A stretch of 54,775 nt of DNA from an uncultured bacterium. Its GTDB lineage: Bacteria; Omnitrophota; Omnitrophia; Omnitrophales; Aquincolibacteriaceae. The DNA lies in NCBI GenBank assembly GCA_964482725.1, contig CAYZYT010000015.1, forward strand, positions 1-54,775. The letters run 5' to 3'. The notes beneath the pieces are model-generated. The model saw only the letters and a list, made by a program, of their open reading frames with translations, did not search any database and had not been told where the DNA came from. Numbering within the stretch: the stretch's first letter is position 1; every line of letters begins with the position of its first letter. Position numbers and translations under genes: made by a program. Positions 27,200 through 50,338 of the stretch are shown piece after piece.

Positions 27200-28323
27200 A
27201 ATCCAAAAAATTCGGATTTAAGTTCATCGCGAAGGATAAGAAATGCGAGGCGCGGGTCGGGAAGGTGACGACGGCGCACGGGAGTTTTGAGACGCCGGTC
27301 TTCATGCCGGTGGGGACTCAAGGAACAGTTAAAGCCGTGCTGCCGCGCGATCTCAAGGAATCCGGCTCCGAGATCATTCTTTCGAATGCCTATCATCTTT
27401 ATATACGCCCCGGCCTCGAGGTGATCCAGAAACTCAAAGGGCTCCATAAATTCATGGCCTGGGACCGGCCGATCCTGACCGACAGCGGCGGCTATCAGGT
27501 GTTTTCCTTAAGCAAGCTGCGGAGCATCACAGAAGAAGGCGTGAAGTTCAATTCCTACTTTGACGGGCGGGAGATATTCCTCACGCCGGAAAAGGTGATG
27601 GAGATCCAGCAGGTGCTCGGGAGCGATATTGCGATGATCTTTGATGAATGTCCGGCCGCCAGCAAAGATAAACCCTCGATCGAAAAGGCCGTTAATATAA
27701 CCCTGCGTTGGTCGGCAAGAGCCAAGAAATGTCACAAGTTAAAAACGCAGGCGCTCTTTGGCATCATTCAGGGTGGGACGTTCAAGGATCTTCGCAGGGA
27801 ATCACTTGAACGAACCGTCGAGATCGGCTTTGACGGCTACGCGCTCGGAGGTCTCAGCGTGGGGGAACCCAAGCCCGAAATGCTTGAGGCCCTGACGGAT
27901 ATCCTGCCGAGAATGCCCGCGGACAAGCCGCGTTATCTGATGGGGGTCGGCACTCCGATCGATTTCTTTGAAGCGGTGGAACGCGGTGCCGATATGTTCG
28001 ATTGCGTGAACCCGACGCGCTATGGGCGGAACGGGACAGCGTTCACAAGCGACGGACTGGTGGTCCTGCGGAATACTCGATATAAGGAAGACGCCAAGCC
28101 GATCCAACGGGATTGCACTTGTTATGCCTGCAAGAACTTCTCGAGAGCGTACCTCAGGCATTTGGTGAATAGCCATGAGATCCTGGCCGCTGAATTGATT
28201 ACCTTGCATAATATCCATTTTTTCGTAAACTTAGTGAAGTCGATGCGGGAAAAGATACGGAAAAGCCAGTTCCTGCAGTTCAAAAAGCAATTTTTAAACC
28301 GTTTTGATCCACACACGAGATAG
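27196..28323 (+). CDS. tgt: tRNA guanosine(34) transglycosylase
   Basis: TPVFMPVGT, LTDSGGYQVFSL, YLMGVG, DMFDCV, CTCYAC. Confidence 0.97.
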   Translation: MKSKKFGFKFIAKDKKCEARVGKVTTAHGSFETPVFMPVGTQGTVKAVLPRDLKESGSEIILSNAYHLYIRPGLEVIQKLKGLHKFMAWDRPILTDSGGYQVFSLSKLRSITEEGVKFNSYFDGREIFLTPEKVMEIQQVLGSDIAMIFDECPAASKDKPSIEKAVNITLRWSARAKKCHKLKTQALFGIIQGGTFKDLRRESLERTVEIGFDGYALGGLSVGEPKPEMLEALTDILPRMPADKPRYLMGVGTPIDFFEAVERGADMFDCVNPTRYGRNGTAFTSDGLVVLRNTRYKEDAKPIQRDCTCYACKNFSRAYLRHLVNSHEILAAELITLHNIHFFVNLVKSMREKIRKSQFLQFKKQFLNRFDPHTR

Positions 28324-28402
28324 GGTATAGGGTATAGCGGATAGGGGATAGAAAAGTACAAGCCCTTAAGACTAAACCCTAACCCCTATCCCCTAAACGC
28401 TA
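28321..28402. repeat. Inverted TAGGG heptamer element (empty), tgt/yajC
   Basis: TAGGGTA TAGGGTA TAGCGGA TAGGGGA TAG ... CTAAACC CTAACCC CTATCCC CTAAACG CTA; first TAG is the tgt stop. Confidence 0.9.
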
Positions 28403-28415
28403 AAGAGGTTTTATC

Positions 28416-28730
28416 ATGTTCGAATCGATCGCGTACGCCGCCGAAGCCGTTGAAGGAGCCGCCCCCCAGGTCAATCCGTTAGTTCAGTTCATGCCCATTA
28501 TCCTTATGTTCGTGATCTTTTATTTTCTGCTTATCCGGCCCCAGCAGAAAAAGGCCAAGGATCTTCAGGCGATGATTGCCGGTATTAAAAAAGGGGACAA
28601 AGTGGTCACCACGGGCGGCATTCTCGGAGTGGTTTCGAGTCTTCAGGACGATTATGTGGTTCTTGCGGTCGGGGGTTCAGACACCAAAATCGAAGTGCTA
28701 AAGAGCGCGATCGCGGGACTTAGACAATAG
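28416..28730 (+). CDS. yajC: Preprotein translocase subunit YajC
   Basis: IFYFLLIRPQQKK, KKGDKVVTTGGILG. Confidence 0.95.
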   Translation: MFESIAYAAEAVEGAAPQVNPLVQFMPIILMFVIFYFLLIRPQQKKAKDLQAMIAGIKKGDKVVTTGGILGVVSSLQDDYVVLAVGGSDTKIEVLKSAIAGLRQ

Positions 28731-29121
28731 GGTTTAGGGGGTAGGGTATAGTGAAAGCCAGATCCTTTAAAGATCTGATCGTTTGGCAAAAGTCTTACAG
28801 TCTAGTTCTCGAAATATACAGGCTTACGGATCTTTTTCCGAAACATGAAATATATGGTTTGGCCCAGCAAATAAGAAGAGTCGCTGTTTCCATCCCGTCC
28901 AATATTGCCGAAGGGTACGGGCGTCAATACAATAAAGAGTATCGCCAGTTTTTATCGATAGCCTATGGTTCGTTGTGCGAATTAGAAACCCAGTATCTTT
29001 TGAGCGTAGACCTAAACTATATTGAGCGAAGCAGCGTGATTGAAGGTTTGATGAAGGAAGTCGGGGCAATGCTCTACCGGATCATCAATCCTAAACCCTA
29101 ACCCCTATACCCTAAACGCTA
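28728..29121 (+). mobile_element. Filled TAGGG heptamer cassette: left arm + four-helix-bundle gene + right arm
   Basis: TAGGGTT TAGGGGG TAGGGTA TAGTG (yajC stop to GTG start) ... CTAAACC CTAACCC CTATACC CTAAACG CTA (contains the ORF stop); interrupts the usual yajC-secD adjacency; mobility is inferred. Confidence 0.7.
28751..29101 (+). CDS. Four helix bundle protein (23S rRNA IVP / Avd-like family)
   Basis: FKDLIVWQKS, FPKHEIYGLAQQIRR..VSIPSNIAEG, FLSIAYGSL.ELETQ; visibly more AT-rich than its neighbours. Confidence 0.93.
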   Translation: MKARSFKDLIVWQKSYSLVLEIYRLTDLFPKHEIYGLAQQIRRVAVSIPSNIAEGYGRQYNKEYRQFLSIAYGSLCELETQYLLSVDLNYIERSSVIEGLMKEVGAMLYRIINPKP

Positions 29122-29136
29122 GAAAGGTTTTTAAAA

Positions 29137-31311
29137 ATGGACAAACATTATAAGTGGAAAGTCATGCTGATCATCGGGCTCGTCGCCTTTTCTCTCTGGA
29201 AGGTTTATCCTCCGAGTCAAACGATCAATCTCGGGCTTGATCTTCAGGGCGGCGTCCAGTTGCTCCTTCAGGTCGATATGGACAAGGTCCCCGAAGAGGC
29301 GCGTAAAGACGTGACCGCGCGTGTGGCCGAGATCATCCGTAACCGTATTGATGAATTCGGCGTCAAGGAGCCGGAGATCACGACCCAGGGCAAGAACCAG
29401 GTCGTTGTGAAGTTGCCGGGCGTGACAGACCGCGAACGTGCCAAGGAGATCGCCGGCAAGGCCGCTCATTTGGAGTTCAAGATCGTGTCGGAAGATGTGG
29501 ATCTGATCCAGAAGGCAGACGCCGGGACGATCCCTCCTGGATTCGAATATAAGAAAGTTAAAGGAAGTCCGAACGAGGAAATGGTGTTGCTTGCTTTGCT
29601 GCCGGTGCTGACCGGAGAGCATTTGACGACCGCTTCCGTGGGTTTCGACCAGTACGGTTCGGCGATCGTTCAGCTGACGCTCGATCGTGAGGGTGGGAAG
29701 ACCTTTGATAAAGTGACGTTCCAGAATATCGGCAAGCGTCTCGCCATTGTGATGGACGGCCAGGTCTATTCTGCGCCGGTCATCCGTGACAGGATCCCGA
29801 ACGGCAAGGCCCAGATCTCCGGGAATTTCAAGGCTGACGAAGCTGCCGATCTTGCGCTCGTGCTTCGCGCCGGTGCACTTCCTGCGCCTGTGACGGTTGT
29901 GGAAGAAAGAACGATCGGTCCGAGTCTCGGCAAAGATTCTATCGACAGCGGCATCCGCGCCAGTCTTTACGGGGTGCTTTTTGTCGTCCTGTTCATGCCG
30001 ATCTACTATCTTTTCTGCGGATGGGTCGCAAATCTTGGGCTTGTCGTCTATATGATCCTTGTCGCCGGAGCCATGGCGGCTTTCGGATCGACCTTGACCC
30101 TCCCCGGTATCGCGGGTTTCATTTTGTCCGTCGGGATGGCGGTGGATGCCAACGTTCTGATCTTTGAAAGAATGCGCGAAGAAATGGGGACGGGGAAGAC
30201 CGCGCGCGCTGTGGTTTCTGCCGGGTATCACCGTGCTTTTTCGGCCATTTTAGATTCGAACGTCACGACCTTGATCACCTCCGCCCTGCTTTTTATTTTC
30301 GGGACCGGGCCGATCCAGGGTTTTGCCGTAACACTCTCCATCGGTATTATCGCGAGCATGTTCTCTTCGATCTTTGTGACGCGTGTTATTTTTGACTATA
30401 TCGTCAAAAAGAATCCGAACAAGGTTTTCAAGATGCTCCAGCTTTTTAAGAATCCGAACATCGCGTTTTTGAAGAGCCGTCGTTGGGCCTACGGATTTTC
30501 CGTGATCTGTCTCGGGCTCGGGATCTTTGCCCTTACGGCGCGCGGGGCGAAGAATTATGGCGTGGAATTCACCGGGGGGACGCTTGTCCAAGTGGAGTTC
30601 AAGAAGGGGCTGGATCAGGCGAAATTCCGCTCTGAACTTGAGAAACAGGGTCTCAAGTCCCTGACACTTCAGCATTTTGGAGACACCAAGAGTCATCAAT
30701 ATATCGTGAAAATGGCCGAAGGCAATCCGTCGAAAGTGGGGGCGGCTGCGGAGGCGACCGCAGGAAAAGATGCCTACTCGATCCTGAAGGTGGACCAGGT
30801 GGGACCTTCGGTGAGCGGCAGCCTCAGGGATAAGGCGTTTTGGGCCATCGTTTGGTCATGGCTTGGGATCCTGATCTATTTGGGGTGGCGATTTCATTGG
30901 AAATATTCAGCAGCAGCCGTCGTGGCCCTTGTTCATGACACGGTGTTCGCTTTTGGTGTGTATGCCCTTAGCGGACGCGAAATCAACCTCGCAACGATCG
31001 CGGCGATTATGACGATCATCGGTTTTTCCGTGAACGATACGATCGTGACATTTGACCGGATCCGGGACAATGTGAAGCTGATGCGCAAGACGCCTTTTGC
31101 GGACATCGTGAACCTGAGCGTCAACCAAACATTGAGCCGCACTGTTTTGACGTCCATGACCGTGCTATTTGGGACACTGGCGCTTTTTTTCTTCGGGGGA
31201 AGCGCGATCGCAGATTTCGCATTCATCTTGATCATCGGCTTCCTGATTGGGACGTATTCCTCCGTCTTCGTGGCGTCGGCGTTGGTGGTGGATTGGAAAG
31301 CCCATAAATAA
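29137..31311 (+). CDS. secDF: Fused protein translocase subunit SecDF
   Basis: LGLDLQGG, GMAVDANVLIFER, GVEFTGG, GFSVNDTIVTFDRIR. Confidence 0.95.
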   Translation: MDKHYKWKVMLIIGLVAFSLWKVYPPSQTINLGLDLQGGVQLLLQVDMDKVPEEARKDVTARVAEIIRNRIDEFGVKEPEITTQGKNQVVVKLPGVTDRERAKEIAGKAAHLEFKIVSEDVDLIQKADAGTIPPGFEYKKVKGSPNEEMVLLALLPVLTGEHLTTASVGFDQYGSAIVQLTLDREGGKTFDKVTFQNIGKRLAIVMDGQVYSAPVIRDRIPNGKAQISGNFKADEAADLALVLRAGALPAPVTVVEERTIGPSLGKDSIDSGIRASLYGVLFVVLFMPIYYLFCGWVANLGLVVYMILVAGAMAAFGSTLTLPGIAGFILSVGMAVDANVLIFERMREEMGTGKTARAVVSAGYHRAFSAILDSNVTTLITSALLFIFGTGPIQGFAVTLSIGIIASMFSSIFVTRVIFDYIVKKNPNKVFKMLQLFKNPNIAFLKSRRWAYGFSVICLGLGIFALTARGAKNYGVEFTGGTLVQVEFKKGLDQAKFRSELEKQGLKSLTLQHFGDTKSHQYIVKMAEGNPSKVGAAAEATAGKDAYSILKVDQVGPSVSGSLRDKAFWAIVWSWLGILIYLGWRFHWKYSAAAVVALVHDTVFAFGVYALSGREINLATIAAIMTIIGFSVNDTIVTFDRIRDNVKLMRKTPFADIVNLSVNQTLSRTVLTSMTVLFGTLALFFFGGSAIADFAFILIIGFLIGTYSSVFVASALVVDWKAHK

Positions 31312-31391
31312 TAGGGGATAGCGTATAGAATATAGGGAATAGAAAAAGCCTTTCAATTTCTTTCCCTATACGCTAAACCCTAAACCCTATG
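31312..31391. repeat. Inverted TAGGG heptamer element (empty), secDF/recJ
   Basis: TAGGGGA TAGCGTA TAGAATA TAGGGAA TAG ... CTATACG CTAAACC CTAAACC CTATG; last unit contains the recJ ATG. Confidence 0.9.
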
Positions 31392-33026
31392 CCTTACTCT
31401 CCCGCCTTCCTCAAACTTCTTTCTAAACGTGGTTTTACGGACAATGCTGCGATAGACACCTTTCTTTTTTCCGGCCTTTCCTCGCTCCATGATCCCTTTC
31501 TTATGAAAAACATGCGGGAAGTGAAGGCCCGCATCGAAAAAGCGGTTCATGCTCGGGAAAAGATCTTTATTCACGGAGACTACGATGTGGACGGGATCAC
31601 CGGAGTTGCGGTCCTGGCACGGACGCTTGAGAAACTTGGCGGCGAATGCACCACCTTTCTTCCGGAGCGCGAACGCGACGGTTATGGCGTGAGCGAGGCT
31701 GCGATCCACCAAGCGCGCGAGCAGGGCGTGGGTCTTATCGTGACGGTTGATTGCGGGATCACGGCTAAAAAAGAGATCGAGATCGCCCGCGCTCATGGCA
31801 TGGATGTGATCGTGATCGACCATCATCGTTTGCCTGCGGAGGGTCTTCCCAACACGCATCTTATTTTGAACCCACTCCAGGAAGATTGTCCGTATCCCTT
31901 TAAAGAGCTCTCGGCCGCGGGGCTCGCGTTCAAATTAAGTCAGGCCTTGACCGGAGACGCGGCATTCGAGCATCTGGATCTTGTGGCGCTTTCCACGATC
32001 AGTGATATTGCGCCGCTCACGGGAGAGAACCGGATTCTTGTGAAGAGCGGGCTTGCCATGCTGTCGGAACGGAAAAACATCGGCATCCGTGCACTGTCGG
32101 AGGTGGCCAAGATGAAAACCTCCCAGGTTAATACCGGACATGTGGGATTCATGCTGGGGCCACGGTTGAACGCGGCGGGGCGGATGAGTTCCGCGGACAC
32201 GGCGCTCCAGCTTTTGCTGACCAAAGTGCCCCGCGAAGCGGAAAGTCTCGCGAAGATCCTGGATGAGGAGAACAAAGCCCGTCAGAAGATGGAGCGCGAG
32301 ACCACCCAGGAAGCAATGCGTAAGGTTGAGAGGACGGTGAATTTCAACCGTGAGCGCGTGATCGTGGTCGACGGGCAGGGTTGGCACCGCGGCGTGATTG
32401 GGATCGTGGCGTCGAGGCTTGTGGAAAAGTACGAGCGGCCGGCGATCGTGATCTCAGTGGAGGAAGGTGTGGGGCGCGGGTCAGGACGCTCCATCAAAAG
32501 CTTCCATCTTTTCAACGCGCTTTCCTCCTGTGAAGCGGTCCTCGAAGGATTCGGAGGACACGCGCAAGCGGCCGGGCTTACGATCACTGAAAAAAATATT
32601 CCCCTTTTGCGTGAAAAGATCAACGCCTTCGCGCTCGAGCATCTCCCGGTTGAAGAATTAAAGCGGCATGTGACTGTGGATATGGAATTGCAGCTGGGTG
32701 AATTGACGAGTGGCTTTCTGGAGGAGCTTGAGCTTTTGGAGCCGCACGGTATGGGGAACCCGCGACCGGTTTTTAAAAGCGACGATCTTCAGCTAAGGTC
32801 GAAGCCGCGGCGTCTTTATGGTGAGACTTATGAGGTGGTGCTGACGGAGGGTTCTCAGAACTATCAGGCCAATCTTAATGAAAAGCAGATGCTTCTTTGT
32901 GCGACTTCCGGTGCCACAACTCGTTTTGAAGCAGCTTATTCTCTCAAGACAAAACAGTGGAATGGCCTGAAGACACTCGTCTTGGCTGTGAAAGAATTCA
33001 GGGAGAAGCTTACGACGCCTTCTTAA
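31389..33026 (+). CDS. recJ: Single-stranded-DNA-specific exonuclease RecJ
   Basis: GDYDVDG, TVDCG, IDHH, PRLNAAGR, GSGRS, FGGHAQAAG. Confidence 0.95.
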   Translation: MPYSPAFLKLLSKRGFTDNAAIDTFLFSGLSSLHDPFLMKNMREVKARIEKAVHAREKIFIHGDYDVDGITGVAVLARTLEKLGGECTTFLPERERDGYGVSEAAIHQAREQGVGLIVTVDCGITAKKEIEIARAHGMDVIVIDHHRLPAEGLPNTHLILNPLQEDCPYPFKELSAAGLAFKLSQALTGDAAFEHLDLVALSTISDIAPLTGENRILVKSGLAMLSERKNIGIRALSEVAKMKTSQVNTGHVGFMLGPRLNAAGRMSSADTALQLLLTKVPREAESLAKILDEENKARQKMERETTQEAMRKVERTVNFNRERVIVVDGQGWHRGVIGIVASRLVEKYERPAIVISVEEGVGRGSGRSIKSFHLFNALSSCEAVLEGFGGHAQAAGLTITEKNIPLLREKINAFALEHLPVEELKRHVTVDMELQLGELTSGFLEELELLEPHGMGNPRPVFKSDDLQLRSKPRRLYGETYEVVLTEGSQNYQANLNEKQMLLCATSGATTRFEAAYSLKTKQWNGLKTLVLAVKEFREKLTTPS

Positions 33027-33286: not shown

Positions 33287-33404
33287 AGGCCGGCTATTAT
33301 AGTGAGGAGATGTTTCTTGGCAAGCGGTTTTTTCTGATATATAATTTTCACGCCGCAATTTTTTTATGCGTATTTTTCCACTATCAAACCGGAAGGAGTT
33401 CATC

Positions 33405-33716: not shown

Positions 33717-33738
33717 GCGGTCGCGCGCTTAGTTTCCC

Positions 33739-35266: not shown

Positions 35267-36346
35267 ATGCGTAAAATAATTGTTTTTCCGGGAGACGGGA
35301 TCGGCCCCGAAGTGACCGCGCAAGCGATGCGGGTTCTTGATAAGGTCGGGAAAATCTCGAATTTTAAATTTGAAACAGAAGAACTTCTGGCCGGCGGCGC
35401 GTCGATTGATAAATACGGTATTCCTCTGACGCCCGAGGCGCTTCTCGCGGCGCAAAAGGCGGACGCGGTATTTTTAGGAGCGGTAGGCGGACCGAAATGG
35501 GACAGCCTTCCGTCGGATAAAAGACCGGAAAAAGGATTGCTGGGTCTGCGTAAAGGGCTCAATGCTTTTGCGAATCTCCGTCCCGTGAAAATGTTCCCGC
35601 AGCTTGAACAGCGCTCTCCCCTCAAGCAGGAGATCGTGAAGGGGCTTGATTTTCTTATCCTTCGTGAGCTTGTGAGCGGGGTTTATTTCGGGACGCCGCG
35701 CGGGATCGAAAAACTTCCAAATGGCGAAGAGCGCGGGTTCAATACCATGGCTTACACGACTTCCGAGATCACAAGGATTGCGAAAATGGCTTTCGAGCTG
35801 TCCCGTAAGCGCCGGAAGAAAGTTACTTCGGTGGATAAGGCGAATGTGCTCGAGGTCAGCCAGCTTTGGCGCAAGGTTGTGATTGACGTCGCAAAAGACT
35901 ATCCGGATGTCGAACTCAATCACCGGTATGTGGATGATTGCGCGATGCAACTGATTCGCGATCCCAAGCAATTCGATGTGATCGTTACAAGTAATCTGTT
36001 CGGGGATATTTTAAGCGATGAATCCGCGATGCTCACCGGTTCGATCGGGATGCTCCCCTCCGCCTCGGTCGGGGATAAAGTAGCGATGTACGAACCCGTG
36101 CACGGTTCGGCGCCTGACATCGCGGGAAAAGATGTGGGGAATCCGTTAGCGACCATTCTTTCGGTCGCGATGATGCTCGAATATAGTTTTCATCAGCCGG
36201 ACGCAGCGCGCGCCATCGAACAAGCGGTCGGGAAAACACTGGCGGACGGTTATCGCACGGCGGACATTTATTCTGAAGGTACGACCAAAGTCGGTTGTTC
36301 GAAAATGGGCGATCTGGTGGTTCAAAATCTAGGCGATAGGGGATAG
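35267..36346 (+). CDS. leuB: 3-isopropylmalate dehydrogenase
   Basis: [37 protein letters not shown]. Confidence 0.96.
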
Positions 36347-36396
36347 CGTGAAGGGTTTAGTTTTTCTATACCCTAACCCCTATACCCTAAACGCTA
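36330..36396. repeat. Inverted TAGGG heptamer element (empty), leuB/asd
   Basis: TAGGCGA TAGGGGA TAGCGTG AAGGGTT TAG ... CTATACC CTAACCC CTATACC CTAAACG CTA; third TAG is the leuB stop. Confidence 0.9.
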
Positions 36397-36412: not shown

Positions 36413-37417
36413 ATGAAAAAATTAAAAGTTGCGATTTTAGGTGTCACCGGTGCAGTGGGTCAGGAACTTTTAGCCATTCTTGAAGAACGGAAGTTCCCGT
36501 TTGCCGAACTCAAGATGCTGGCCTCCGGTCGTTCCGCCGGGAAGAAGATGCAGTTTATGGGGAAGACGTACAATATCGAAGAAGCAACCCCGGACTCTTT
36601 TAAGGGGATCGATCTTGTGCTGGCGAGTGCCGGAGGTTCGATCTCTAAAGCGCTTGCGCCGTATGCCGTGAAGGCCGGGGCGCTTGTGGTGGATAACACC
36701 AGCGCATTCCGCATGGACCCGGAAGTGCCGCTTGTGATCCCCGAGATCAATCCTGAAGATATTGCGAAGCACAAAGGGATCATCGCGAATCCGAACTGTT
36801 CCACCATCATTGCGTTGGTTCCTCTTTGGCCGATCCATAAAGTGGCGAAGATCAAGCGTTTTGTCGCGGCGACCTATCAGGCCGCGAGCGGCGCCGGCGC
36901 GAAGGCGATGGAAGAGCTCAAGATCCAGGCCCAGGACTTTCTGGCCGGCCGGCCCGTCAAAAAAGAGGTTCTGCCGCATCAGATCGCGTTCAACGTGTTT
37001 TCACACAACTCCAAGATCGGGCCGGACGGCTATAACGAGGAAGAGACCAAGATGGTGAAAGAGACCAGGAAGATCTTCCACGACCCGGATATCCGGATCT
37101 CTGCGACCTGCGTGCGCGTGCCGGTCCTTCGGGCGCACTCCGAAGCGCTCAATATAGAGACCGAAAGACCGATCACGGTGGAGGAAGCGCGGGCCCTTCT
37201 CGCGAAGGCCCCGGGCGTGAAGATCGTCGATGACCGCGAAAAGAATTATTTTCCGATGCCTCTCGAAACGACGGGGCAGGATGATATTTTTGTCGGCCGT
37301 CTGCGTATCGATCCGTCTGTGACGAACGGCCTCGCGATGTTCGTCTCAGGCGACCAGATCCGCAAAGGCGCCGCGACGAATGCTATCCAGATCGCTGAAT
37401 TAGCGTTTAGGGAATAG
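36413..37417 (+). CDS. asd: Aspartate-semialdehyde dehydrogenase
   Basis: GVTGAVG, IIANPNCST, TCVRVPV..HSE, KGAATNAIQIAE. Confidence 0.96.
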   Translation: MKKLKVAILGVTGAVGQELLAILEERKFPFAELKMLASGRSAGKKMQFMGKTYNIEEATPDSFKGIDLVLASAGGSISKALAPYAVKAGALVVDNTSAFRMDPEVPLVIPEINPEDIAKHKGIIANPNCSTIIALVPLWPIHKVAKIKRFVAATYQAASGAGAKAMEELKIQAQDFLAGRPVKKEVLPHQIAFNVFSHNSKIGPDGYNEEETKMVKETRKIFHDPDIRISATCVRVPVLRAHSEALNIETERPITVEEARALLAKAPGVKIVDDREKNYFPMPLETTGQDDIFVGRLRIDPSVTNGLAMFVSGDQIRKGAATNAIQIAELAFRE

Positions 37418-37480
37418 GGTATAGGGGATAGAGGGCAATAAAAGATTTTCTATACCCTAAACCCTATACGCTATACCCTA
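37401..37480. repeat. Inverted TAGGG heptamer element (empty), asd/truA
   Basis: TAGCGTT TAGGGAA TAGGGTA TAGGGGA TAG ... CTATACC CTAAACC CTATACG CTATACC CTA; third TAG is the asd stop. Confidence 0.9.
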
Positions 37481-37484
37481 TTGT

Positions 37485-42304: not shown

Positions 42305-43030
42305 TTATTTCCTGCCAAATTCCTTCCGCAATCGCCGGACCAAAGCCCTGGCTGCCAGGACCTCGGATTCCCGCTTGATCTTATGAATTGCCGAGGCTTT
42401 TCGTTTGCCTCCGGCCGAAACCGTGGTTTTTACACCCTTTTCCGAGAAGGCGTGTGTGTACTCCGGGAGCTTTTGCCATTTTTTTAAGGTCATTTCCTGA
42501 AGCGTGCTTTTGGGGTTCGGGTCGAGCCGGAAAAGAAGCTTGGGGTCAAAATATCTTTTGAAATGTTTCAGGATGAACGCTTCGACCTTGGTGTGGCCCT
42601 GATCAAAGTAGATCGCCGCAAAAAGCGCCTCAAGCGCGTCGGTAAGCAACTTGGCCTTGAGGAAGTCTTTAAAATTCTGGCGCATATTTTTGCTGATCAG
42701 GAGGATGCGATGGAGTTTCATGCCCTGGGCGATGCGACTGAGGATCTTTTGAGAGACGAGGATCGAACGGAGTTTCGAGAGCATGCCTTCATCGGCTTCC
42801 GGGAATTTCTCGAATAATTTCTGACAAATGACTTCGTTTAAAATGGAATCTCCGAGGAATTCCAGCCGGTCAAAATCTTCGAGTCCCTTCGTGATGCGGA
42901 AGTTCTCATTGCGAAACGAGGGGTGTGTCAGCGCGGCGCGATAGACCGGGAGGGATTTGACCTGGAAACCAAGGACTTTGCGCAGGGAAGTCTTGATGTG
43001 AGGATCTTTGGGGGATATTTTCTTTCGCAT
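42305..43030 (-). CDS. rnc: Ribonuclease III
   Basis: ALTHPS, DRLEFLGDSIL, DALEALFAAIYFD, dsRBD NPKSTLQE. Confidence 0.92.
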   Translation of the reverse strand: MRKKISPKDPHIKTSLRKVLGFQVKSLPVYRAALTHPSFRNENFRITKGLEDFDRLEFLGDSILNEVICQKLFEKFPEADEGMLSKLRSILVSQKILSRIAQGMKLHRILLISKNMRQNFKDFLKAKLLTDALEALFAAIYFDQGHTKVEAFILKHFKRYFDPKLLFRLDPNPKSTLQEMTLKKWQKLPEYTHAFSEKGVKTTVSAGGKRKASAIHKIKRESEVLAARALVRRLRKEFGRK

Positions 43031-44361: not shown

Positions 44362-44439
44362 TACCGCTTTAAGATCGGATTTTGGGGTTAGCGGTACCAT
44401 GTGGACAATCCGTTAAAATTAAAGGGAGAGCCATTCTCG

Positions 44440-45660: not shown

Positions 45661-45668
45661 AAAAAGGA

Positions 45669-45737
45669 TAGGGTATAGGGTGTAGGGTATAGAAACAAGA
45701 ATTTTTCTAAACCCTATCCGCTAAACCCTAAACGCTA
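45669..45737. repeat. Inverted TAGGG heptamer element (empty), argJ/argB
   Basis: TAGGGTA TAGGGTG TAGGGTA TAG ... CTAAACC CTATCCG CTAAACC CTAAACG CTA. Confidence 0.9.
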
Positions 45738-45742
45738 AAAAG

Positions 45743-46597
45743 ATGAAAGAATATATCGCAAAAGCGCAGGCCCTGATCGAGGCGCTTCCTTACATCCAGA
45801 AGTTTCGCGGAAAAGAAGTCTTGATCAAATATGGCGGCGCGGCTCTGACCTATCAGGAAGTTCGCGACATGGTGCTTCAGGATCTTGTCTTCATGAGTTA
45901 TGTGGGGATCCGGCCGATCCTGATCCACGGGGGCGGCAAATTTATCACCGATGCCATGAAGAAAAAAGGCGTGCAAAGCCAGTTCGTGAACGGTCTCCGC
46001 GTGACGGACAAAGCAACGATTGAAGTCGTGAACGAAACGCTTGCGGACCTGAACCGGAGCATTGTCCATGACATTGAACGTCTCGGAGGTTCCGCGGTCG
46101 GGCTTTCCGGCTATGACGCCGAGATCCTGAACGTCGTGAAGCATACCGAGAACGGCGACGTGGGTTTTGTCGGCGATGTTTCTTCCGTCAACACGGTGCT
46201 CCTCAAGGAACTCACGGAATTCGGAAGGATCCCCGTGATCTTTCCGGTGGGCAAGGGACCGGATGGTGAAATGTATAACGTGAATGCGGACGAAGCCGCG
46301 GCCAATATCGCGGCAGCCATGCATGTGCCGAAGTTTATGGTGCTGACGAATGTCAAAGGCATTCTCCGTGATCCGGCCCATGAAGAGACGCTCATTCCTT
46401 CGCTTCGCGTGAGCGAGACGCAACAACTGATCGACCAGAAGATCATTACCGGGGGCATGATCCCCAAGGTTAAGGCTTGCATCGACGCGCTTCAGGGCGG
46501 TGTTCAGAAAGCCCACATCATTGACGGCCGCATCACGCACGCCCTTTTGCTCGAAATTTTTACGGACCAAGGGATCGGGACGGAAATTACACTCTAG
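45743..46597 (+). CDS. argB: Acetylglutamate kinase
   Basis: EALPYIQKF, KYGG, HGGG, NVNAD, GGMIPKV. Confidence 0.96.
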   Translation: MKEYIAKAQALIEALPYIQKFRGKEVLIKYGGAALTYQEVRDMVLQDLVFMSYVGIRPILIHGGGKFITDAMKKKGVQSQFVNGLRVTDKATIEVVNETLADLNRSIVHDIERLGGSAVGLSGYDAEILNVVKHTENGDVGFVGDVSSVNTVLLKELTEFGRIPVIFPVGKGPDGEMYNVNADEAAANIAAAMHVPKFMVLTNVKGILRDPAHEETLIPSLRVSETQQLIDQKIITGGMIPKVKACIDALQGGVQKAHIIDGRITHALLLEIFTDQGIGTEITL

Positions 46598-46672
46598 GGA
46601 ATAGGGTTCAGGGGATAGGGTATAGAAAAGCAAAAGAATTTCTAAACCCTAAACGCTATACCCTATACGCTA
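46595..46672. repeat. Inverted TAGGG heptamer element (empty), argB/argD
   Basis: TAGGGAA TAGGGTT CAGGGGA TAGGGTA TAG ... CTAAACC CTAAACG CTATACC CTATACG CTA; first TAG is the argB stop. Confidence 0.9.
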
Positions 46673-46678
46673 AAAAAT

Positions 46679-47890
46679 ATGAAAACAGCCGACGTTCAAA
46701 AATTATACGAACAATACGTGATGCCGACCTACACCCGGCTGCCGGTGTGCCTGGTCAAAGGGAAAGGCTCGCGTGTCTGGGACCTCGAGGGAAAAGTGTA
46801 CCTCGATTTTTTCCCAGGCTGGGCGGTTTCCGGCATCGGGCATTGTCATCCCATCGTGGTGAATGCGATCAAGGAACAGTCGCGGAAAATGCTCCACATC
46901 GCGAACAATTTCCTGAATGTGAAGCAGGCCGAGCTTGCAAAGACTCTTTCCGAAGCCTCGTTTCCCGCGAGGATCTTCTTCTGCAACAGCGGCGCCGAGG
47001 CGAACGAAGGCGCTATCAAATTCGCCAAGAAATATGGGAGTGAAACCGGACGTTTCGAGATCATCACCATGAAAAATTCTTTTCATGGGAGGACGCTCGC
47101 GGCGATGACTGCGACGGGACAGGAAAAATTCCATAAGGGATTCGAACCGCTCTTGGAAAAATTCCGCCATGCGGAGTTTAATGATCTGGAGTCGGTTAAA
47201 AAGCTTGTGACCGATAAAACGATTGCGATCATGCTGGAGCCGATCCAGGGAGAGGGAGGGGTCTCCGTGGCGAGCCGGGATTTCCTAGAAGGGCTCCGGA
47301 AGCTCTGCGATGAAAAAGATATGCTTCTGATCCTAGATGAAGTACAGACCGGCATGGGACGCACGGGGAAAATGTTCGCGTATCAGCATTATTCTCTGGA
47401 ACCGGATATTATGACGCTGGCCAAGACCTTGGGCGGGGGAGTTCCGATCGGAGCTTTTGTTGTGAGCCGGAAGATCAAGCGTGAAGTGCTCACCGCCGGG
47501 ATGCACGGGTCGACCTTTGGCGGAAACCCGCTTGTGTGCGCGGCGAGTCTTGCGGTCTTTAAGGCGATCAAAAAGGAAAAGCTGCTCACGAACACGATCC
47601 GGATGGGAGAGCTTCTCGAGCAGGAGTTTGAGAAGCTGAAAGCCAAATATCCCGTGATCGAAAGCACCCGGGGAGTGGGACTGATGCGGGGCCTGAAGCT
47701 CAAGGAACCGTCTGCGCCCTATGCGGATGAAGCGCGCGCGCAGGGGTTTCTTATCAATGCGACGCAGGGCGATATCCTGAGGATCATGCCGCCCATGACG
47801 GTTTCGGTCAAAGAGATCAAGCTTGGCATGAAGATCCTGGACAATGTTTTTGCCAAGGTCACGGCACAGGCCGCGAAGGCGACTTTATAA
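46679..47890 (+). CDS. argD: Acetylornithine aminotransferase
   Basis: NSGAEANE, SFHGRT, EPIQGEGG, DEVQTG, LAKTLGGG. Confidence 0.94.
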   Translation: MKTADVQKLYEQYVMPTYTRLPVCLVKGKGSRVWDLEGKVYLDFFPGWAVSGIGHCHPIVVNAIKEQSRKMLHIANNFLNVKQAELAKTLSEASFPARIFFCNSGAEANEGAIKFAKKYGSETGRFEIITMKNSFHGRTLAAMTATGQEKFHKGFEPLLEKFRHAEFNDLESVKKLVTDKTIAIMLEPIQGEGGVSVASRDFLEGLRKLCDEKDMLLILDEVQTGMGRTGKMFAYQHYSLEPDIMTLAKTLGGGVPIGAFVVSRKIKREVLTAGMHGSTFGGNPLVCAASLAVFKAIKKEKLLTNTIRMGELLEQEFEKLKAKYPVIESTRGVGLMRGLKLKEPSAPYADEARAQGFLINATQGDILRIMPPMTVSVKEIKLGMKILDNVFAKVTAQAAKATL

Positions 47891-47894
47891 TTTC

Positions 47895-47964
47895 GTCATT
47901 CTGATCCCGCCCGGAGGCGGGAGAAGAATCTCAAAACGGGATCCTTCGCCGCGCTCAGGATGAC
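47895..47964. repeat. GTCAT(T/C)CTGA-family palindromic element, argD/argF
   Basis: GTCATTCTGA-TCCCGCC..GGCGGGA-GAAGAATCT..GGATCCTTCG..CTCAGGATGAC. Confidence 0.85.
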
Positions 47965-47995
47965 GAGTTTGTAGTGAAAAAAAAGAAGGGTATCT

Positions 47996-48925
47996 ATGTT
48001 CAAATCATTGATCTCGATCAACGACCTTAGCTCCGAAGAGATACGGAACATTATGGCGCTGGCGGCCAAGGTTAAGGCGCGCCCGCAAGAAGTTCGGGAC
48101 GCGCTCGAAGGGCACATCTTTGGTTTTATTTTTGAGAAGCCCTCGACCCGGACTTGGGTTTCTTTTCAGGCCGGCATTTATTCCATGGGCGGCGGGGCGA
48201 TCTATCTCGGGCCTGAGGATATCAAACTGGGCGTTCGGGAAGAAGTGCGGGACGTGGCGCGTGTGCTTTCTCGCTATCTTTCGGGCGTGGTCATGCGGAC
48301 CTTTTCACACTGGACCATCACCGAGTTTCAGGATTATTTTGAGAAGCCCGTCATCAACGGCTTGAGCGATCTTGAGCACCCGTGTCAGGCGCTTGCCGAT
48401 TACATGACACTTTATGAAAAAATCCCGGCGGAACGTGACCCCGTACTGGCGTTTGTGGGAGACGGAAATAACGTCCTGCACTCCCTGATGCTCGTGGCCG
48501 CGAAACTGGGGGCGAAGATCCGGTACGCAACGCCCAAGCAATACCAGCCTAAGCCCAAGCTTCTCGCGCTGGCCAAGCAGATCGCGAAAAAGACAGGGGC
48601 CGTGATCGAAGGATTCTTGGATCCAGCGGAAGCCGTGAAGGACGCGGATGCGATCTACACGGATGTGTGGGTGAGTATGGGGGAAGAGGCCCTGCGGCAG
48701 AAAAAGCTCAAAGATTTCAAAGGCATGCAGGTCAATAAGGAACTCTTGAAGCATGCGAAAAAAGACGCTCTTGTGATGCACTGCCTTCCGGCGCACCGGG
48801 GCGAAGAGATCACCAATGACGTGATGGAGAGCAAGCATTGCGTCGTGTTTGACGAGGCCGAGAACCGGCTCCATATTCAGAAAGCCATTTTGCTTTATCT
48901 CTTTAACCCAGGGGCGATCCAGTAA
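47996..48925 (+). CDS. argF: Ornithine carbamoyltransferase
   Basis: STRT, HPCQ, TDVWVSMG, HCLPAHRG. Confidence 0.96.
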   Translation: MFKSLISINDLSSEEIRNIMALAAKVKARPQEVRDALEGHIFGFIFEKPSTRTWVSFQAGIYSMGGGAIYLGPEDIKLGVREEVRDVARVLSRYLSGVVMRTFSHWTITEFQDYFEKPVINGLSDLEHPCQALADYMTLYEKIPAERDPVLAFVGDGNNVLHSLMLVAAKLGAKIRYATPKQYQPKPKLLALAKQIAKKTGAVIEGFLDPAEAVKDADAIYTDVWVSMGEEALRQKKLKDFKGMQVNKELLKHAKKDALVMHCLPAHRGEEITNDVMESKHCVVFDEAENRLHIQKAILLYLFNPGAIQ

Positions 48926-48930
48926 AGCCC

Positions 48931-49070
48931 TCGGTAACGGGAACGGTTACGAAGCCAGTCACGGTGAGGGTGCCGTGACCAAATTTTTAAAAGACGCCAC
49001 CGCCTGCAAAGCGGCGGGGTCCCGCCCAAGGCGGGAAAACGGGCATCGTGGCCTTGGCCGTAACCGAATC
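48931..49070. repeat. Inverted hexamer-period repeat element with a nested palindrome, argF/argG
   Basis: CGGTAA CGGGAA CGGTTA CGAAGC CAGTCA CGGTGA ... CGTGGC CTTGGC CGTAAC CGAATC; loop holds TCCCGCC-CAA-GGCGGGA. Confidence 0.6.
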
Positions 49071-49088
49071 ATACGAAAGGGTGTTTTT

Positions 49089-50273
49089 ATGAAAAAGGTT
49101 GTTCTTGCGTACTCCGGGGGTCTCGATACCTCCTGCGCGGTGAAATGGCTCGGGGAGAACCACGGGTTGGATGTGATCTGTTTTTGCGCGTTTATCGGCG
49201 AGGTGAAAGACAAGGCGCCGCTCATCAAGCGGGCCGAGGCCGCGGGCGCGATCAAGACCTTTATCGTGGATCTTAAAGAAGAATTCGCGAAAGATTACAT
49301 TATGCCGGCGCTTTGGGCGCACGCGCGTTACGAAGGCAAGTACCCGCTTGCGACAGCGCTTGGCCGTCCGCTCATTGCGAAACATCTTGTGGCCGTCGCT
49401 CAAAAAGAAGGCGCAGAATTTGTGGCGCATGGCTGTACGGGGAAGGGGAACGATCAGGTGCGGCTTGAGGTGGGTGTGAGGACCCTCGATCCGGACCTCA
49501 AGATCATCGCGCCGCTTCGCGACTGGGAATTCAAAACGCGCGAAGAAGAGATCGAGTATGCCCTGGAACGGAAGATCCCGATCGACGTGACAAAGAAAAG
49601 CCCTTATTCCATCGATAAGAACATTTGGGGCATTGCGATCGAAGCGGGGATCCTGGAAGATCCCATGGTCGAGCCGCCGGAAGACGCCTATGTCATGACA
49701 TGCTCTCCGGGCAAGGCGCCGAAGAAGCCGTGTTATATCGAGATCTCTTTTGAGAAAGGCGTGCCGGTGAAATTGAACGGCACCCGGATGCCGCTGGTCG
49801 AGTTGATCGAAAAGTTGAACACGATCGCAGGCAAGTACGGCGTCGGACGCTTCGACATGATCGAGAACCGGCTTGTGGGGATCAAAAGCCGCGAGGTTTA
49901 TGAAGCCCCCGCCGCCGATGTGCTCCTCAAAGCGCATGAAGAGCTCGAAGGGTTCGTGATGGACCGGGAATTTCTCCATTATAAGAGACTGCTGACCGAG
50001 AAATATGCGGAGCTTGTGTATTTCGGGCTCTGGTTCTCACCGCTCAAAAGATCGCTGGATGCTTTTTTTGCGGCAAACCAAAATCGCGTGACGGGAAAGG
50101 TCCGGTTCAAACTGGACCGGGGTCACGCGATCTGCGTCGGCCGTGAATCCAAATATGCTCTTTATAAAGAAAAACTCGCCACGTATTCCAAGGGCGATCT
50201 GTTTGACCGGAAGGCTGCAACCGGATTCATGAAGATCTGGGGACTTCCGTACGAGGGAATGTATAAATCATAG
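49089..50273 (+). CDS. argG: Argininosuccinate synthase
   Basis: VLAYSGGLDTS, HGCTGKGNDQVR, GIKSREVYE. Confidence 0.97.
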   Translation: MKKVVLAYSGGLDTSCAVKWLGENHGLDVICFCAFIGEVKDKAPLIKRAEAAGAIKTFIVDLKEEFAKDYIMPALWAHARYEGKYPLATALGRPLIAKHLVAVAQKEGAEFVAHGCTGKGNDQVRLEVGVRTLDPDLKIIAPLRDWEFKTREEEIEYALERKIPIDVTKKSPYSIDKNIWGIAIEAGILEDPMVEPPEDAYVMTCSPGKAPKKPCYIEISFEKGVPVKLNGTRMPLVELIEKLNTIAGKYGVGRFDMIENRLVGIKSREVYEAPAADVLLKAHEELEGFVMDREFLHYKRLLTEKYAELVYFGLWFSPLKRSLDAFFAANQNRVTGKVRFKLDRGHAICVGRESKYALYKEKLATYSKGDLFDRKAATGFMKIWGLPYEGMYKS

Positions 50274-50338
50274 GGTATAGTGAGTAGGGTATAGCGGTTA
50301 GAAAAAACTATGCCCTATCCCCTAAACCCTAAACGCTA
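50271..50338. repeat. Inverted TAGGG heptamer element (empty), argG/argH
   Basis: TAGGGTA TAGTGAG TAGGGTA TAGCGGT TAG ... CTATGCC CTATCCC CTAAACC CTAAACG CTA; first TAG is the argG stop. Confidence 0.9.

What the first reader, a model, noticed from the sequence alone, without database searches (positions are those of the whole stretch)
28321..50338. Candidate new system: inverted TAGGG heptamer cassettes at operon junctions, one carrying a four-helix-bundle (IVP/Avd-like) gene
Seen: eight elements with one architecture, a left arm of 3-4 (TAGGGNN) units plus TAG, a short A/T-rich spacer and a complementary right arm of (CTANNCC) units, six ending CTA(A/T)ACGCTA. They lie at tgt/yajC (28321), yajC/secDF (28728-29121), secDF/recJ (31312), leuB/asd (36330), asd/truA (37401), argJ/argB (45669), argB/argD (46595) and argG/argH (50271). 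All are between co-transcribed genes, always G-rich arm first. In one, the spacer is replaced by a complete four-helix-bundle gene whose start and stop codons lie inside the arms. Known: this family (23S rRNA IVP, TIGR02436) was first found inside excised 23S rRNA intervening sequences and is structurally related to Avd, the RNA-binding partner of DGR reverse transcriptases. Inference: filled and empty forms of one mobile or intervening cassette whose arms pair in mRNA and loop out the cargo. No recombinase or RT is visible here, so any machinery would act in trans.
Basis: partly seen in the sequence, partly recalled or inferred. Interest (0 to 1): 0.9.

Follow-up and report, generated by a model that had tools for sequence, protein, structure and literature searches.

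The report
Heptamer-armed palindromic cassettes carrying IVP genes
The eight hairpins are real and belong to a genome-wide population of small palindromic elements built from inverted 7-base repeats, some of which carry a gene for a small four-helix-bundle protein of unknown function, a pairing that recurs across many bacterial phyla and some viral contigs.

Summary
All eight inverted TAGGGNN hairpins sit at the stated junctions, and one encloses a 116-aa PF05635 (23S-rRNA-IVP) gene. The genome (2.3 Mb) holds 76 such "empty" hairpins, all with period 7, in at least 8 unit families. All six of its IVP genes lie between inverted repeat arms, each with a different unit. Among IVP genes from many phyla, 52 of 74 loci have complementary period-7/8 arms, against 11 of 1654 other genes here. 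Orthologous junctions in congeners are filled, empty, absent or occupied by another unit family. Five IVP-less relatives show 0 hairpins in 0.92 Mb, where about 32 would be expected. The IVP gene is under purifying selection (dN/dS 0.07). I read these as IVS-type palindromic cassettes (gene-bearing and gene-less) that spread by copying and sit in intergenic spacers next to stop codons. Not shown: pairing in mRNA, RNase III cutting, the mobility mechanism, and any IVP binding to the arms. Two tests for RNA-level selection were negative. I found no paper linking IVP genes to heptamer arrays beyond one Coxiella IVS. Verdict: a new variant of a known kind, of high interest.

The parts
28321..28402 (+). 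Empty TAGGGNN hairpin between tgt and yajC. Its first TAG is the tgt stop codon.
   Evidence: Fold -29.0 kcal/mol, z -3.1. Absent from the same junction in 7 of 16 congener loci and skipped in DNA contigs of two lake runs.
28721..29121 (+). Filled cassette between yajC and secDF: left arm 28721-28751, IVP gene 28751-29101, right arm 29091-29121.
   Evidence: The arms close the MFE fold of the 414-nt RNA. The same filled cassette is present in G017 (91% aa identity) and G004 (80%).
28751..29101 (+). 116-aa four-helix-bundle protein gene (PF05635 / TIGR02436, 23S-rRNA-IVP family).
   Evidence: PF05635 E 1.5e-37. TIGR02436 E 8.6e-36; Avd model 28.7 bits, below its cut-off of 80. PDB 2gsc E 3e-23. 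dN/dS 0.07 against G017.
31312..31389 (+). Empty TAGGGNN hairpin between secDF and recJ.
   Evidence: Fold -30.5 kcal/mol, z -5.4. Congeners have either a terminator-like hairpin or arrays of other units at this junction.
36330..36396 (+). Empty TAGGGNN hairpin between leuB and asd.
   Evidence: Fold -24.9 kcal/mol, z -2.8.
37401..37480 (+). Empty TAGGGNN hairpin between asd and truA.
   Evidence: Fold -34.6 kcal/mol, z -5.1. G016 has a hairpin of another unit at the same site.
45669..45737 (+). Empty TAGGGNN hairpin between argJ and argB.
   Evidence: Fold -30.3 kcal/mol, z -5.6. A DNA contig of run X5 joins 45661 to 45743 with 2 letters between (table 5c).
46595..46672 (+). Empty TAGGGNN hairpin between argB and argD.
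   Evidence: Fold -33.6 kcal/mol, z -6.7.
50271..50338 (+). Empty TAGGGNN hairpin between argG and argH.
   Evidence: Fold -25.9 kcal/mol, z -3.5.
75..184 (.).
   Evidence: It shares its loop with elements at G000 C3:166724 and C7:4259 but has different flanks.
25044..25107 (.). Second (G/C)AGACNN hairpin in the window.
42305..43030 (-). RNase III gene (rnc), the only one found in the genome. It is the candidate enzyme for cutting the stems (inference only).
   Evidence: (PF14622, E 2.3e-26).

Best explanation
The eight TAGGG hairpins are gene-less members, and the yajC/secDF element a gene-bearing member, of a class of small palindromic cassettes. Each cassette has two inverted arms of about 4-5 tandem heptamers (octamers in some lineages) around either a short loop or an IVP gene. 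They are the same kind of object as the ORF-bearing intervening sequences (IVS) of 23S rRNA, here lodged in intergenic spacers right after stop codons. Shown: the architecture; its genome-wide multiplicity in several unit families; its association with IVP genes across phyla and in viral contigs; gain, loss and replacement at orthologous sites; copies that share long exact words; co-occurrence of hairpins with IVP genes; and purifying selection on the IVP gene. Inferred: the cassette is co-transcribed with its host genes; the arms fold into an imperfect stem of about 30 bp; that stem is cut by RNase III without rejoining, as published for rRNA IVS, so the flanking cistrons stay usable and only such 'safe' sites are tolerated; and gene-less copies are non-autonomous derivatives that spread by copying. 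Most speculative step: the pentameric IVP protein binds the heptamer arrays and is needed to keep or spread them.
For: Architecture and excess over chance. Generic scan of the genome: 94 inverted array pairs, 76 of them with a gap of at most 120 nt, 76 of 76 at period 7, 110 of 152 arms with 4-5 units, median element length 78 nt. All 6 IVP genes of the genome lie between inverted arrays, each with its own unit. In 74 usable of 80 IVP loci from many phyla, 52 have complementary period-7/8 arms, against 11 of 1654 other genes of this array-rich genome. The right arm core starts a median of 1 nt after the IVP stop, and the 5' arm is purine-rich in 50 of 55 loci. In 7 viral-contig loci, arrays are visible by eye in 7 and pass the numeric test in 3. 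Polymorphism: yajC/secDF is filled in 3, absent in 7 and otherwise occupied in 7 of 17 genus loci; tgt/yajC is occupied in 9 and short in 7 of 16. DNA contigs of related lake populations lack the 28321 and 45669 elements. Copying: 43 of 76 elements share an exact word of at least 20 nt with an element elsewhere, where random 78-mers share at most 13. Co-occurrence: 3.3, 4.5 and 4.2 hairpins per 100 kb in three genomes with 6 IVP genes, 0.5 in one genome with a single weak IVP, and 0 in 921,906 bases of five IVP-less genomes, where about 32 would be expected. IVP dN/dS is 0.07, like secDF at 0.07-0.09. Elements begin a median of 2.5 nt after the upstream stop and end a median of 15.5 nt before the next start. 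An rnc gene is present. Published, passages read: the Coxiella IVS carries an IVP-family ORF, a 28-bp terminal stem cut by RNase III, and tandem heptamers upstream of the ORF (PMC4990558).
Against: I found no direct evidence of RNA pairing or cleavage. Sense and antisense folds are equally stable: the sense fold is better in 18 of 42, mean difference -0.01 kcal/mol, p 0.84. An element's own two arms are not more complementary than arms taken from different copies of the same family: GGATGG 14.3 own against 15.8 cross, AGAC 15.2 against 16.1. So there is no compensatory evolution, and stems carry regular mismatches at the variable unit positions. Hairpin contexts (42 co-directional, 8 divergent, 6 convergent, 18 inside crude ORF calls, 2 at contig ends) mirror the genome's background of gene pairs, so the elements are not specific to operon interiors. 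No target-site duplication could be established. The largest family (GGATGG, 23 copies) has no IVP gene with matching arms in this 95%-complete assembly; one exists in congener G001. At 8 of 9 orthologous sites, G016 has a hairpin of a different unit, which also fits selection for 'a hairpin here'. The co-occurrence rests on related genomes and could simply reflect that IVP genes live inside such arms. G029 (6 IVP genes) gave 0 hairpins, but only 35.6 kb could be sampled.
Confidence: 0.55

Rival explanations
1. IVP regulon. The heptamer arrays are binding sites for IVP proteins acting as ring-shaped nucleic-acid-binding regulators, and each IVP gene is flanked by its own sites for autoregulation. 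Arrays at many junctions are shaped by selection and slippage towards the motifs of the resident IVP paralogues. The elements are host regulatory devices rather than selfish ones.
For: There is no own-versus-cross complementarity and no strand asymmetry, as expected if the arms are protein sites rather than optimised stems. Units have about 5 fixed and 2 free positions, and arms have mostly 4-5 units. The solved relative 2gsc has 5 chains, and its paper's title, seen only in a reference list, describes five four-helix bundles. Sites are conserved but the unit family turns over between G000 and G016 at 8 of 9 sites. IVP-less genomes have no arrays.
Against: Insertion boundaries are sharp next to intact empty sites. 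Loops are shared, and exact words up to 30 nt with the same order of unit variants occur at separate loci; these point to copying, not convergent in-place evolution. The genome has at least 8 unit families but only 6 IVP genes, and the largest family has no matching IVP here. No binding has been tested.
Confidence: 0.2
2. Ordinary host hairpins. These are REP-like mRNA-stabilising or processing stems that expand in place by slippage of a 7-nt seed. The IVP gene is an unrelated passenger that happens to be tolerated in such loops.
For: The position immediately after stop codons and before the next ribosome-binding site. At the same sites, IVP-less G013 has plain small hairpins, and several congeners have a terminator-like hairpin at secDF/recJ. 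Orthologous sites tend to stay occupied. Heptamer repeats are reported as the commonest long simple repeats in bacteria (passages in PMC4679880 and PMC4692102).
Against: Genome-wide unit families with shared loops and long shared words. A roughly 100-fold enrichment of such arms around IVP genes in unrelated phyla and in viral contigs. Empty sites only 14 nt long in congeners. The hairpins disappear completely in IVP-less relatives.
Confidence: 0.12
3. Classical DNA-level MITEs. The arms are terminal inverted repeats recognised by a conventional transposase encoded elsewhere (for example a Y1/RAYT-type or DDE enzyme), and the IVP gene is cargo.
For: Terminal inverted repeats, many dispersed copies, presence/absence polymorphism, equal own and cross arm complementarity, and no RNA strand bias. 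Half of the roughly 16 TAGGG copies cluster in 22 kb, reminiscent of local hopping.
Against: The two Y1_Tnp genes of the genome (one with an internal stop) have no arrays within 1.5 kb and carry their own different inverted repeats. No consistent target-site duplication was found. The one gene that recurs inside the arms across phyla is IVP, never a transposase. DDE and other transposase families were not searched.
Confidence: 0.1
4. Retroelement-linked. The IVP protein acts like DGR Avd with a reverse transcriptase in trans, and the cassettes spread through an RNA intermediate.
For: Distant homology of IVP to Avd: PF22296 E 5.5e-4 and the NCBIfam Avd model E 1.3e-6.
Against: No PF00078 match in the 95%-complete genome. 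Both Avd models score below their cut-offs.
Confidence: 0.03

Closest known systems
ORF-bearing intervening sequences of 23S rRNA (Leptospira, Coxiella). Source: PMC4990558, passages read. Ralph & McClelland 1993 was seen only as a citation.
   Same: An IVP-family ORF enclosed by terminal inverted repeats that form a long stem. In Coxiella there are tandem heptamers upstream of the ORF. Both ORF-bearing and ORF-deleted forms exist. Distribution is sporadic, and a mobile origin was proposed long ago.
   Different: Here the host RNA is mRNA (intercistronic and other intergenic spacers), not rRNA helices 25/45. The arms are built wholly of 7-8-nt tandem units. There are dozens of gene-less copies per genome in several unit families. 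Excision by RNase III is shown for rRNA IVS but only inferred here.
Unexplained inverted heptamer repeat pairs: Xanthomonas GGGAATC and Nostoc GGGGA(C/T)T (PMC4692102); Geobacter metallireducens heptanucleotide sites (PMC2700814).
   Same: Intergenic arrays of tandem heptamers. Xanthomonas has 70-75 convergent pairs. They lie close to the end of the upstream ORF, vary in length between relatives, and in Geobacter consist of 4-5 units.
   Different: Neither paper contains 'S23'. 'Four helix' was searched only in PMC4692102 and 'intervening sequence' only in PMC2700814, both with 0 occurrences. Those papers propose G-quadruplexes or regulator sites. Whether the Xanthomonas IVP protein XCC0516 (PDB 2gsc) lies between such arrays could not be checked here.
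REP/BIME elements with RAYT transposases, and Correia elements of Neisseria (recalled, not from a call; a REP/RAYT paper, PMC2817692, was seen only in a search listing).
   Same: Short palindromic multi-copy elements in intergenic DNA that are co-transcribed with genes. In REPtrons the mobilising gene is itself flanked by the repeats. Correia elements are reported to be RNase III substrates.
   Different: The enclosed gene is a 116-aa four-helix bundle with no nuclease or recombinase motif known to me. The arms are tandem heptamer arrays rather than a single palindrome. The Y1 transposases in this genome are not associated with the arrays.
DGR accessory protein Avd.
   Same: Same fold family, and a pentamer that binds nucleic acid (PMC10053308, passage read). 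Weak HMM similarity.
   Different: Scores are below both Avd cut-offs. No reverse transcriptase, template repeat or variable repeat is nearby or anywhere in the genome.
Ring proteins that read spaced short RNA repeats (TRAP, HutP). Recalled, not from a call.
   Same: A possible working analogy for the boldest reading: one subunit per repeat, with fixed core bases and free spacer bases.
   Different: No homology, and no binding data for IVP.

Membership tests
PF05635 / TIGR02436 (23S-rRNA-IVP, four-helix-bundle protein) | Profile score above the curated cut-off | tested here: met
   PF05635 128.5 bits against a cut-off of 33.8. TIGR02436 122.5 bits against 24.
PF05635 / TIGR02436 (23S-rRNA-IVP, four-helix-bundle protein) | Small single-domain protein with the conserved R..S..N..E motif (given as GxxRxxxSxxxNxxE in PMC3936711) | tested here: met
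   The protein is 116 aa. Reading the sequence gives R43, S47, N51 and E54 at the stated spacing. The leading G is not at that spacing.
PF05635 / TIGR02436 (23S-rRNA-IVP, four-helix-bundle protein) | Homopentamer of four-helix bundles | not tested
   The relative 2gsc has 5 chains. No fold or complex job was run for this protein.
rRNA intervening sequence (IVS) | Inserted in a 23S (or 16S) rRNA helix | tested here: not met
   All eight elements lie between protein-coding genes. Rfam finds only one tRNA in the window.
rRNA intervening sequence (IVS) | Terminal inverted repeats forming a long stem around the insert | tested here: met
rRNA intervening sequence (IVS) | Excised from the transcript by RNase III without religation | not testable with these tools
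   An rnc gene is present. The only RNA data were contigs with no cover over the cassette.
MITE / REP-type non-autonomous element | Many dispersed copies with inverted termini and presence/absence polymorphism | tested here: met
MITE / REP-type non-autonomous element | Target-site duplication | tested here: inconclusive
   At tgt/yajC the original stop codon plus ribosome-binding site survive 3' of the insert. One congener shows a 6-nt direct repeat, others do not.
MITE / REP-type non-autonomous element | Cognate autonomous copy encoding a transposase | tested here: not met
   The gene-bearing copies encode only IVP. Y1_Tnp genes are not associated with the arrays. Other transposase families were not searched.
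Diversity-generating retroelement (Avd) | Avd model above cut-off and an adjacent reverse transcriptase | tested here: not met
   28.7 bits against a cut-off of 80. No PF00078 match in the genome.
Inverted heptamer repeat pairs (Xanthomonas type) | Convergent arrays of tandem heptamers in intergenic DNA, close to the upstream ORF's end | tested here: met
   76 of 76 at period 7; start a median of 2.5 nt after the stop.

The most novel reading that the evidence does not exclude
IVP pentamers are sequence-specific readers of heptamer arrays, roughly one subunit per unit and 4-5 units per arm. An IVP gene plus its arms would then form a self-propagating palindromic element with no recognisable recombinase or reverse transcriptase, a new class of mobile or self-maintaining element. 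Its gene-less copies would be the long-unexplained heptamer repeats of Xanthomonas, Geobacter and cyanobacteria, and its rRNA-borne copies the classical IVS.
Probability: 0.25. Interest if true: 0.92.

Novelty: new variant of a known kind. Interest (0 to 1): 0.8.

Why it matters
PF05635 is a very large family with no known function: 22,829 clusters at 50% identity match this protein at E <= 1e-3. Its genes have been read as rRNA IVS cargo, as 'cas-associated' genes (PMC3936711) or as Avd look-alikes. The finding gives the family a defining genomic context, enclosure by inverted 7-8-nt repeat arrays, which holds from this freshwater bacterium to CPR, Bacteroidota, Desulfobacterota and viral contigs. 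It ties that context to a population of gene-less palindromes that come and go between close relatives and are missing where IVP is missing. That links three separate puzzles: rRNA intervening sequences, intergenic heptamer repeats, and the function of IVP proteins. It also makes them testable, by asking whether IVP binds its arms, whether RNase III cuts them, and whether hairpins persist without IVP. On the practical side, such insertions between cistrons can mislead guilt-by-association annotation and break assemblies. Arm-to-arm chimeric joints were seen.

Tried and rejected

Rfam at gathering thresholds finds no family at any element. PADLOC has no match for the IVP protein.

The reverse-transcriptase route is rejected: no PF00078 match in the genome. 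Y1/RAYT as mobiliser is not supported.

The RNA strand-asymmetry test and the own-versus-cross arm complementarity test were both negative. I keep RNA pairing only as an inference from the rRNA IVS literature.

My first association metric, RNAduplex energies of 136-nt flanks, was too unspecific: own median -63.8 against cross -48.2, and only 15 of 74 below the first percentile of cross pairs. Two stricter array detectors passed 31 of 74 and 30 of 74 loci, because units with two free positions fall under a 0.78 self-match. The criterion finally reported was chosen after seeing those results, so all four thresholds and their controls are given there.

Read-laying used contigs only. The RNA contigs of X10 and X13 cover parts of secDF and nothing over the cassette, so nothing about transcription or cleavage can be said. 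Joints between arms of different elements look like assembly-graph effects of the repeats.

The G001 205-nt insert at yajC/secDF was tested as a decayed cassette. It has no ORF and no similarity to the IVP gene beyond the ends, so I do not claim it as an intermediate.

The tgt and yajC rows of the dN/dS table were misaligned because the lengths were unequal, and I dropped them.

I could not define a target-site duplication.

G029 (6 IVP genes) yielded only 35.6 kb and 0 hairpins, which is uninformative.

C3:166724 and C7:4259 share flanks, so they are a segmental duplicate, not independent insertions.

Whether Xanthomonas XCC0516 lies between GGGAATC arrays could not be checked, because no route to that genome was open. 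Supplementary files of the Geobacter and Xanthomonas papers, which list their repeat loci, were not seen. PMC47033 (Ralph & McClelland 1993) is not held.

My statement that the IVP-array link is not in print rests on searches and the passages read.

No structure, complex or atlas job was run.

Full report
OBSERVATION. The period-7 pattern TAGGGNNTAGGGNNTAG, with up to 1 mismatch, occurs 42 times in the window and never in 100 dinucleotide-preserving shuffles. Each element has a left arm of 3-5 TAG-phased heptamers, a short A...T-bounded loop, and a complementary right arm. Six of the eight right arms end CTA(A/T)ACGCTA. Pfam confirms every flanking gene: tgt, yajC, secDF, recJ, leuB-type, asd and truA, and argJ, argB, argD, argG and argH. 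The element at 28721-29121 encloses a 116-aa ORF that matches PF05635 at E 1.5e-37 and TIGR02436 at E 8.6e-36. Its GTG start overlaps the last TAG of the left arm, and its TAA stop lies inside the right arm. As RNA, the seven empty elements each fold into one long imperfect hairpin: 5-6-bp helices separated by 1-2-nt mismatches, -24.9 to -34.6 kcal/mol, z -2.8 to -6.7. In the 414-nt filled element the arms close the minimum-energy fold. 'G-rich arm first' is correct but holds on both strands of any such palindrome, so it carries no information about gene orientation.

The window is contig C15 of a 2.33-Mb, 24-contig, 95%-complete assembly. I ran a generic scan for tandem arrays of period 6-9 that face a reverse-complementary array. 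It finds 94 pairs, 76 of them with at most 120 nt between the arrays. All 76 have period 7 in both arms. Of 152 arms, 110 have 4-5 units, and the median element is 78 nt. They fall into at least eight unit families: GGATGGN (23 copies by my classifier), (G/C)AGACNN (25), TAGGGNN (about 16, of which 8 are in this window), AACGGGN, AAGCGNT, CGTATGT, CAACGNN and GTACGGN. Two (G/C)AGACNN elements lie in the window itself, at 75-184 and 25044-25107. The purine-rich arm is the 5' arm in 72 of 76.

IVP GENES LIVE INSIDE SUCH ARMS, GENERALLY. The genome has six PF05635 genes. Read directly, each lies between inverted short tandem repeats, and each has a different unit: TAGGGNN, GAGACNG, GGGGAAC, an 8-mer GTGTCAAA, AAATNCG nested in TAGGGTT, and a more complex repeat. 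I fetched 80 loci encoding relatives (51-78% identity) from Planctomycetota, Omnitrophota, Atribacterota, Desulfobacterota, Bacteroidota, CPR groups, Acidobacteriota, Clostridia and others. Seventy-four had enough clean flank. Of these, 52 have a complementary upstream/downstream pair (ungapped score >= 13) whose arm has period 7 or 8. The same test passes 11 of 1654 other genes of this array-rich genome (other thresholds are listed there, and stricter detectors gave 30-31 of 74). In IVP-less G013, under the stricter criterion, 1 of 328 genes passes. The right arm core starts a median of 1 nt after the IVP stop, overlapping or abutting it in 27 of 55. The 5' arm is purine-rich in 50 of 55. Seven loci from viral contigs show the same architecture by eye, and three pass the numeric test. 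Twenty further IVP loci from congeners again show their own unit types, including one with GGATGG arms. IVP genes share the strand of the upstream neighbour in 61 of 70 loci and of the downstream neighbour in 65 of 75.

GAIN, LOSS AND REPLACEMENT. I compared the tgt-yajC-secDF-recJ region in 20 relatives. At yajC/secDF in the genus (17 loci), the IVP cassette is present in G000, G017 (91% aa identity) and G004 (80%). The spacer is only 29-36 nt in 7. In the other 7 it holds something else, including empty hairpins of the AAGCGNT family (G016, G012b). At tgt/yajC (16 loci), 7 have a 14-44-nt spacer with no array, and 9 are occupied: three by TAGGGNN, the rest by other units. In the cleanest comparison the insert sits exactly at the tgt stop codon. 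The element's first TAG becomes the stop, and the original stop plus ribosome-binding site survive on its 3' side. DNA contigs from two lake metagenomes that hold a related population skip 28324-28414, and a contig of one of them (X5) joins 45661 to 45743. Among the G000 elements whose site I could locate in the sampled 400 kb of G016, 8 of 9 sites are occupied there too, but by a hairpin of a different unit. In G019 it is 3 of 4. In IVP-less G013 the two located sites carry only plain small hairpins. Copies are related by copying, not only by motif: 43 of 76 elements share an exact word of at least 20 nt (22 share at least 24 nt, up to 30) with an element elsewhere, where random 78-mers share at most 13. 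A 45-nt loop recurs at loci with different flanks. The TAGGG pattern is patchy even within the genus: 73 hits here, 91 in G017, 34 in G004, and control level in most others.

HAIRPINS AND IVP GENES GO TOGETHER. IVP gene counts come, and densities of close inverted pairs from the same scan. G000 has 6 IVP genes and 3.3 per 100 kb. G016 has 6 and 4.5 (400 kb sampled). G030 has 6 and 4.2 (400 kb). G019 has one weak match and 0.5 (218 kb). G013, G022, G024, G035 and G021 have no IVP gene and 0 pairs in 400, 82, 139, 185 and 117 kb. At the rate of the IVP-rich genomes, about 32 would be expected in those 921,906 bases. G029 (6 IVP genes) gave 0, but only 35.6 kb could be fetched. These genomes are relatives, so the count overstates independence, and the direction of dependence is open. 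The IVP gene itself is constrained: dN/dS is 0.07 between G000 and G017, against 0.07-0.09 for secDF.

HOW IT MOST LIKELY WORKS. What is shown is a class of palindromic cassettes, gene-bearing and gene-less, that spread by copying, turn over fast, sit next to stop codons and travel with IVP genes. The closest documented object is the ORF-bearing IVS of 23S rRNA. In Coxiella it carries an IVP-family ORF and has a 28-bp terminal stem cut by RNase III. It also has tandem heptamers upstream of the ORF, with the 5' cut at the first repeat (PMC4990558, passages read). IVP ORFs also occur in 16S and 23S insertions of CPR bacteria (preprint 10.1101/2024.02.27.582315, passages) and between cmr genes in cas operons (PMC3936711, passage). 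I therefore infer the following. The cassettes are co-transcribed with their hosts. The arms form a stem that RNase III cuts without rejoining; rnc is present, as it happens in this window at 42305-43030. Only places where such a cut is harmless persist: rRNA helix tips and spacers between a stop codon and the next ribosome-binding site. The universal purine-first chirality would fit RNA-level constraints. One such constraint is that a purine-rich 5' arm lies just upstream of the IVP start. Another is that a C-rich arm transcribed first would lie unpaired and could invite Rho. Both are my inferences.

WHAT SPEAKS AGAINST THE RNA PART. Folding energy is the same for sense and antisense: sense is better in 18 of 42, p 0.84. 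An element's own arms are no more complementary than arms from different copies of its family. So there is no sign of compensatory evolution. Complementarity comes from the family consensus (about 5 fixed, 2 free positions per unit). Contexts mirror the background of gene-pair orientations. These results fit arms that are recognised as arrays of units, at DNA or RNA level, by a protein. The obvious candidate is the protein they enclose: its solved relative 2gsc has five chains, and arms have mostly 4-5 units. That is the boldest reading and it is untested. No reverse transcriptase is present. The two Y1 transposase genes are not near arrays. No target-site duplication could be defined.

COMPARISON AND NOVELTY. 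Known: rRNA IVS with IVP ORFs and inverted termini; heptamers in the Coxiella IVS; unexplained inverted heptamer pairs in Xanthomonas (70-75 per genome) and heptanucleotide sites in Geobacter (PMC4692102, PMC2700814; passages); and IVP as an uncharacterised Avd relative (PMC10053308). In six full-text searches I found no paper stating that IVP genes are generally enclosed by inverted 7-8-nt arrays, that gene-less copies populate intergenic spacers, or that the two co-occur. I rate this a new variant of a known kind (IVS-type elements outside rRNA, with a MITE-like gene-less population). There is a one-in-four chance that it is a mechanistically new kind of element centred on an array-reading pentamer.

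VERDICT. Interest 0.8.

Noticed in passing
window 42305-43030 (-): The genome's only RNase III gene (PF14622, PF00636) lies inside the same window, between the two clusters of TAGGG hairpins. This is probably coincidence.
   Followed up: partly
window 26296-26335: Between the ORFs ending at 26298 and starting at 26342 there is a degenerate run that looks like a solo left arm (TAG-phased, purine-rich) with no right arm. It may be a decayed ninth TAGGG element.
   Followed up: no
L083 (G014), yajC/secDF spacer: The 30-nt 'absent' spacer of G014 still contains the last right-arm unit and the ribosome-binding site seen at the 3' end of the G000 cassette. It may be a footprint of a lost element, or a seed for one.
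   Followed up: no
G000 C4:104696-106203; also C7:60731-61325 and C14:57416-58880: Several hairpins of two families are packed within 1-1.5 kb, apparently bracketing very small ORFs. My crude gene calls labelled many of them 'intragenic'.
   Followed up: no
G000 C4:102058-102369 (-) and orthologous loci L195, L196, L198, L203: At one conserved chromosomal locus the IVP gene carries a long low-complexity N-terminal open frame. It is only 44-63% identical between congeners, apart from G009-G005 at 77% (housekeeping proteins are 85-90%). The arm unit differs with the IVP lineage (GGGGAAC, GGATGG, CAACG, GGGACTC). This suggests whole-cassette replacement or fast co-evolution.
   Followed up: partly
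window 31312-31389 versus L084, L088-L090, L093, L094, L097: At secDF/recJ most congeners carry a GC-rich terminator-like hairpin with a T-run, some preceded by heptamer remnants. G000 has the TAGGG element there instead.
   Followed up: no
L215 (viral contig): One viral IVP locus has the opposite chirality (pyrimidine-rich repeats upstream, purine-rich downstream) and a longer period of about 11. It is an exception to the purine-first rule.
   Followed up: no
G000 C4:13524-13832 and C17:13061-13384: Two Y1 (IS200/RAYT-like) transposase genes, one with an internal stop. Each is bracketed by its own different inverted repeat, unrelated to the heptamer arrays.
   Followed up: partly
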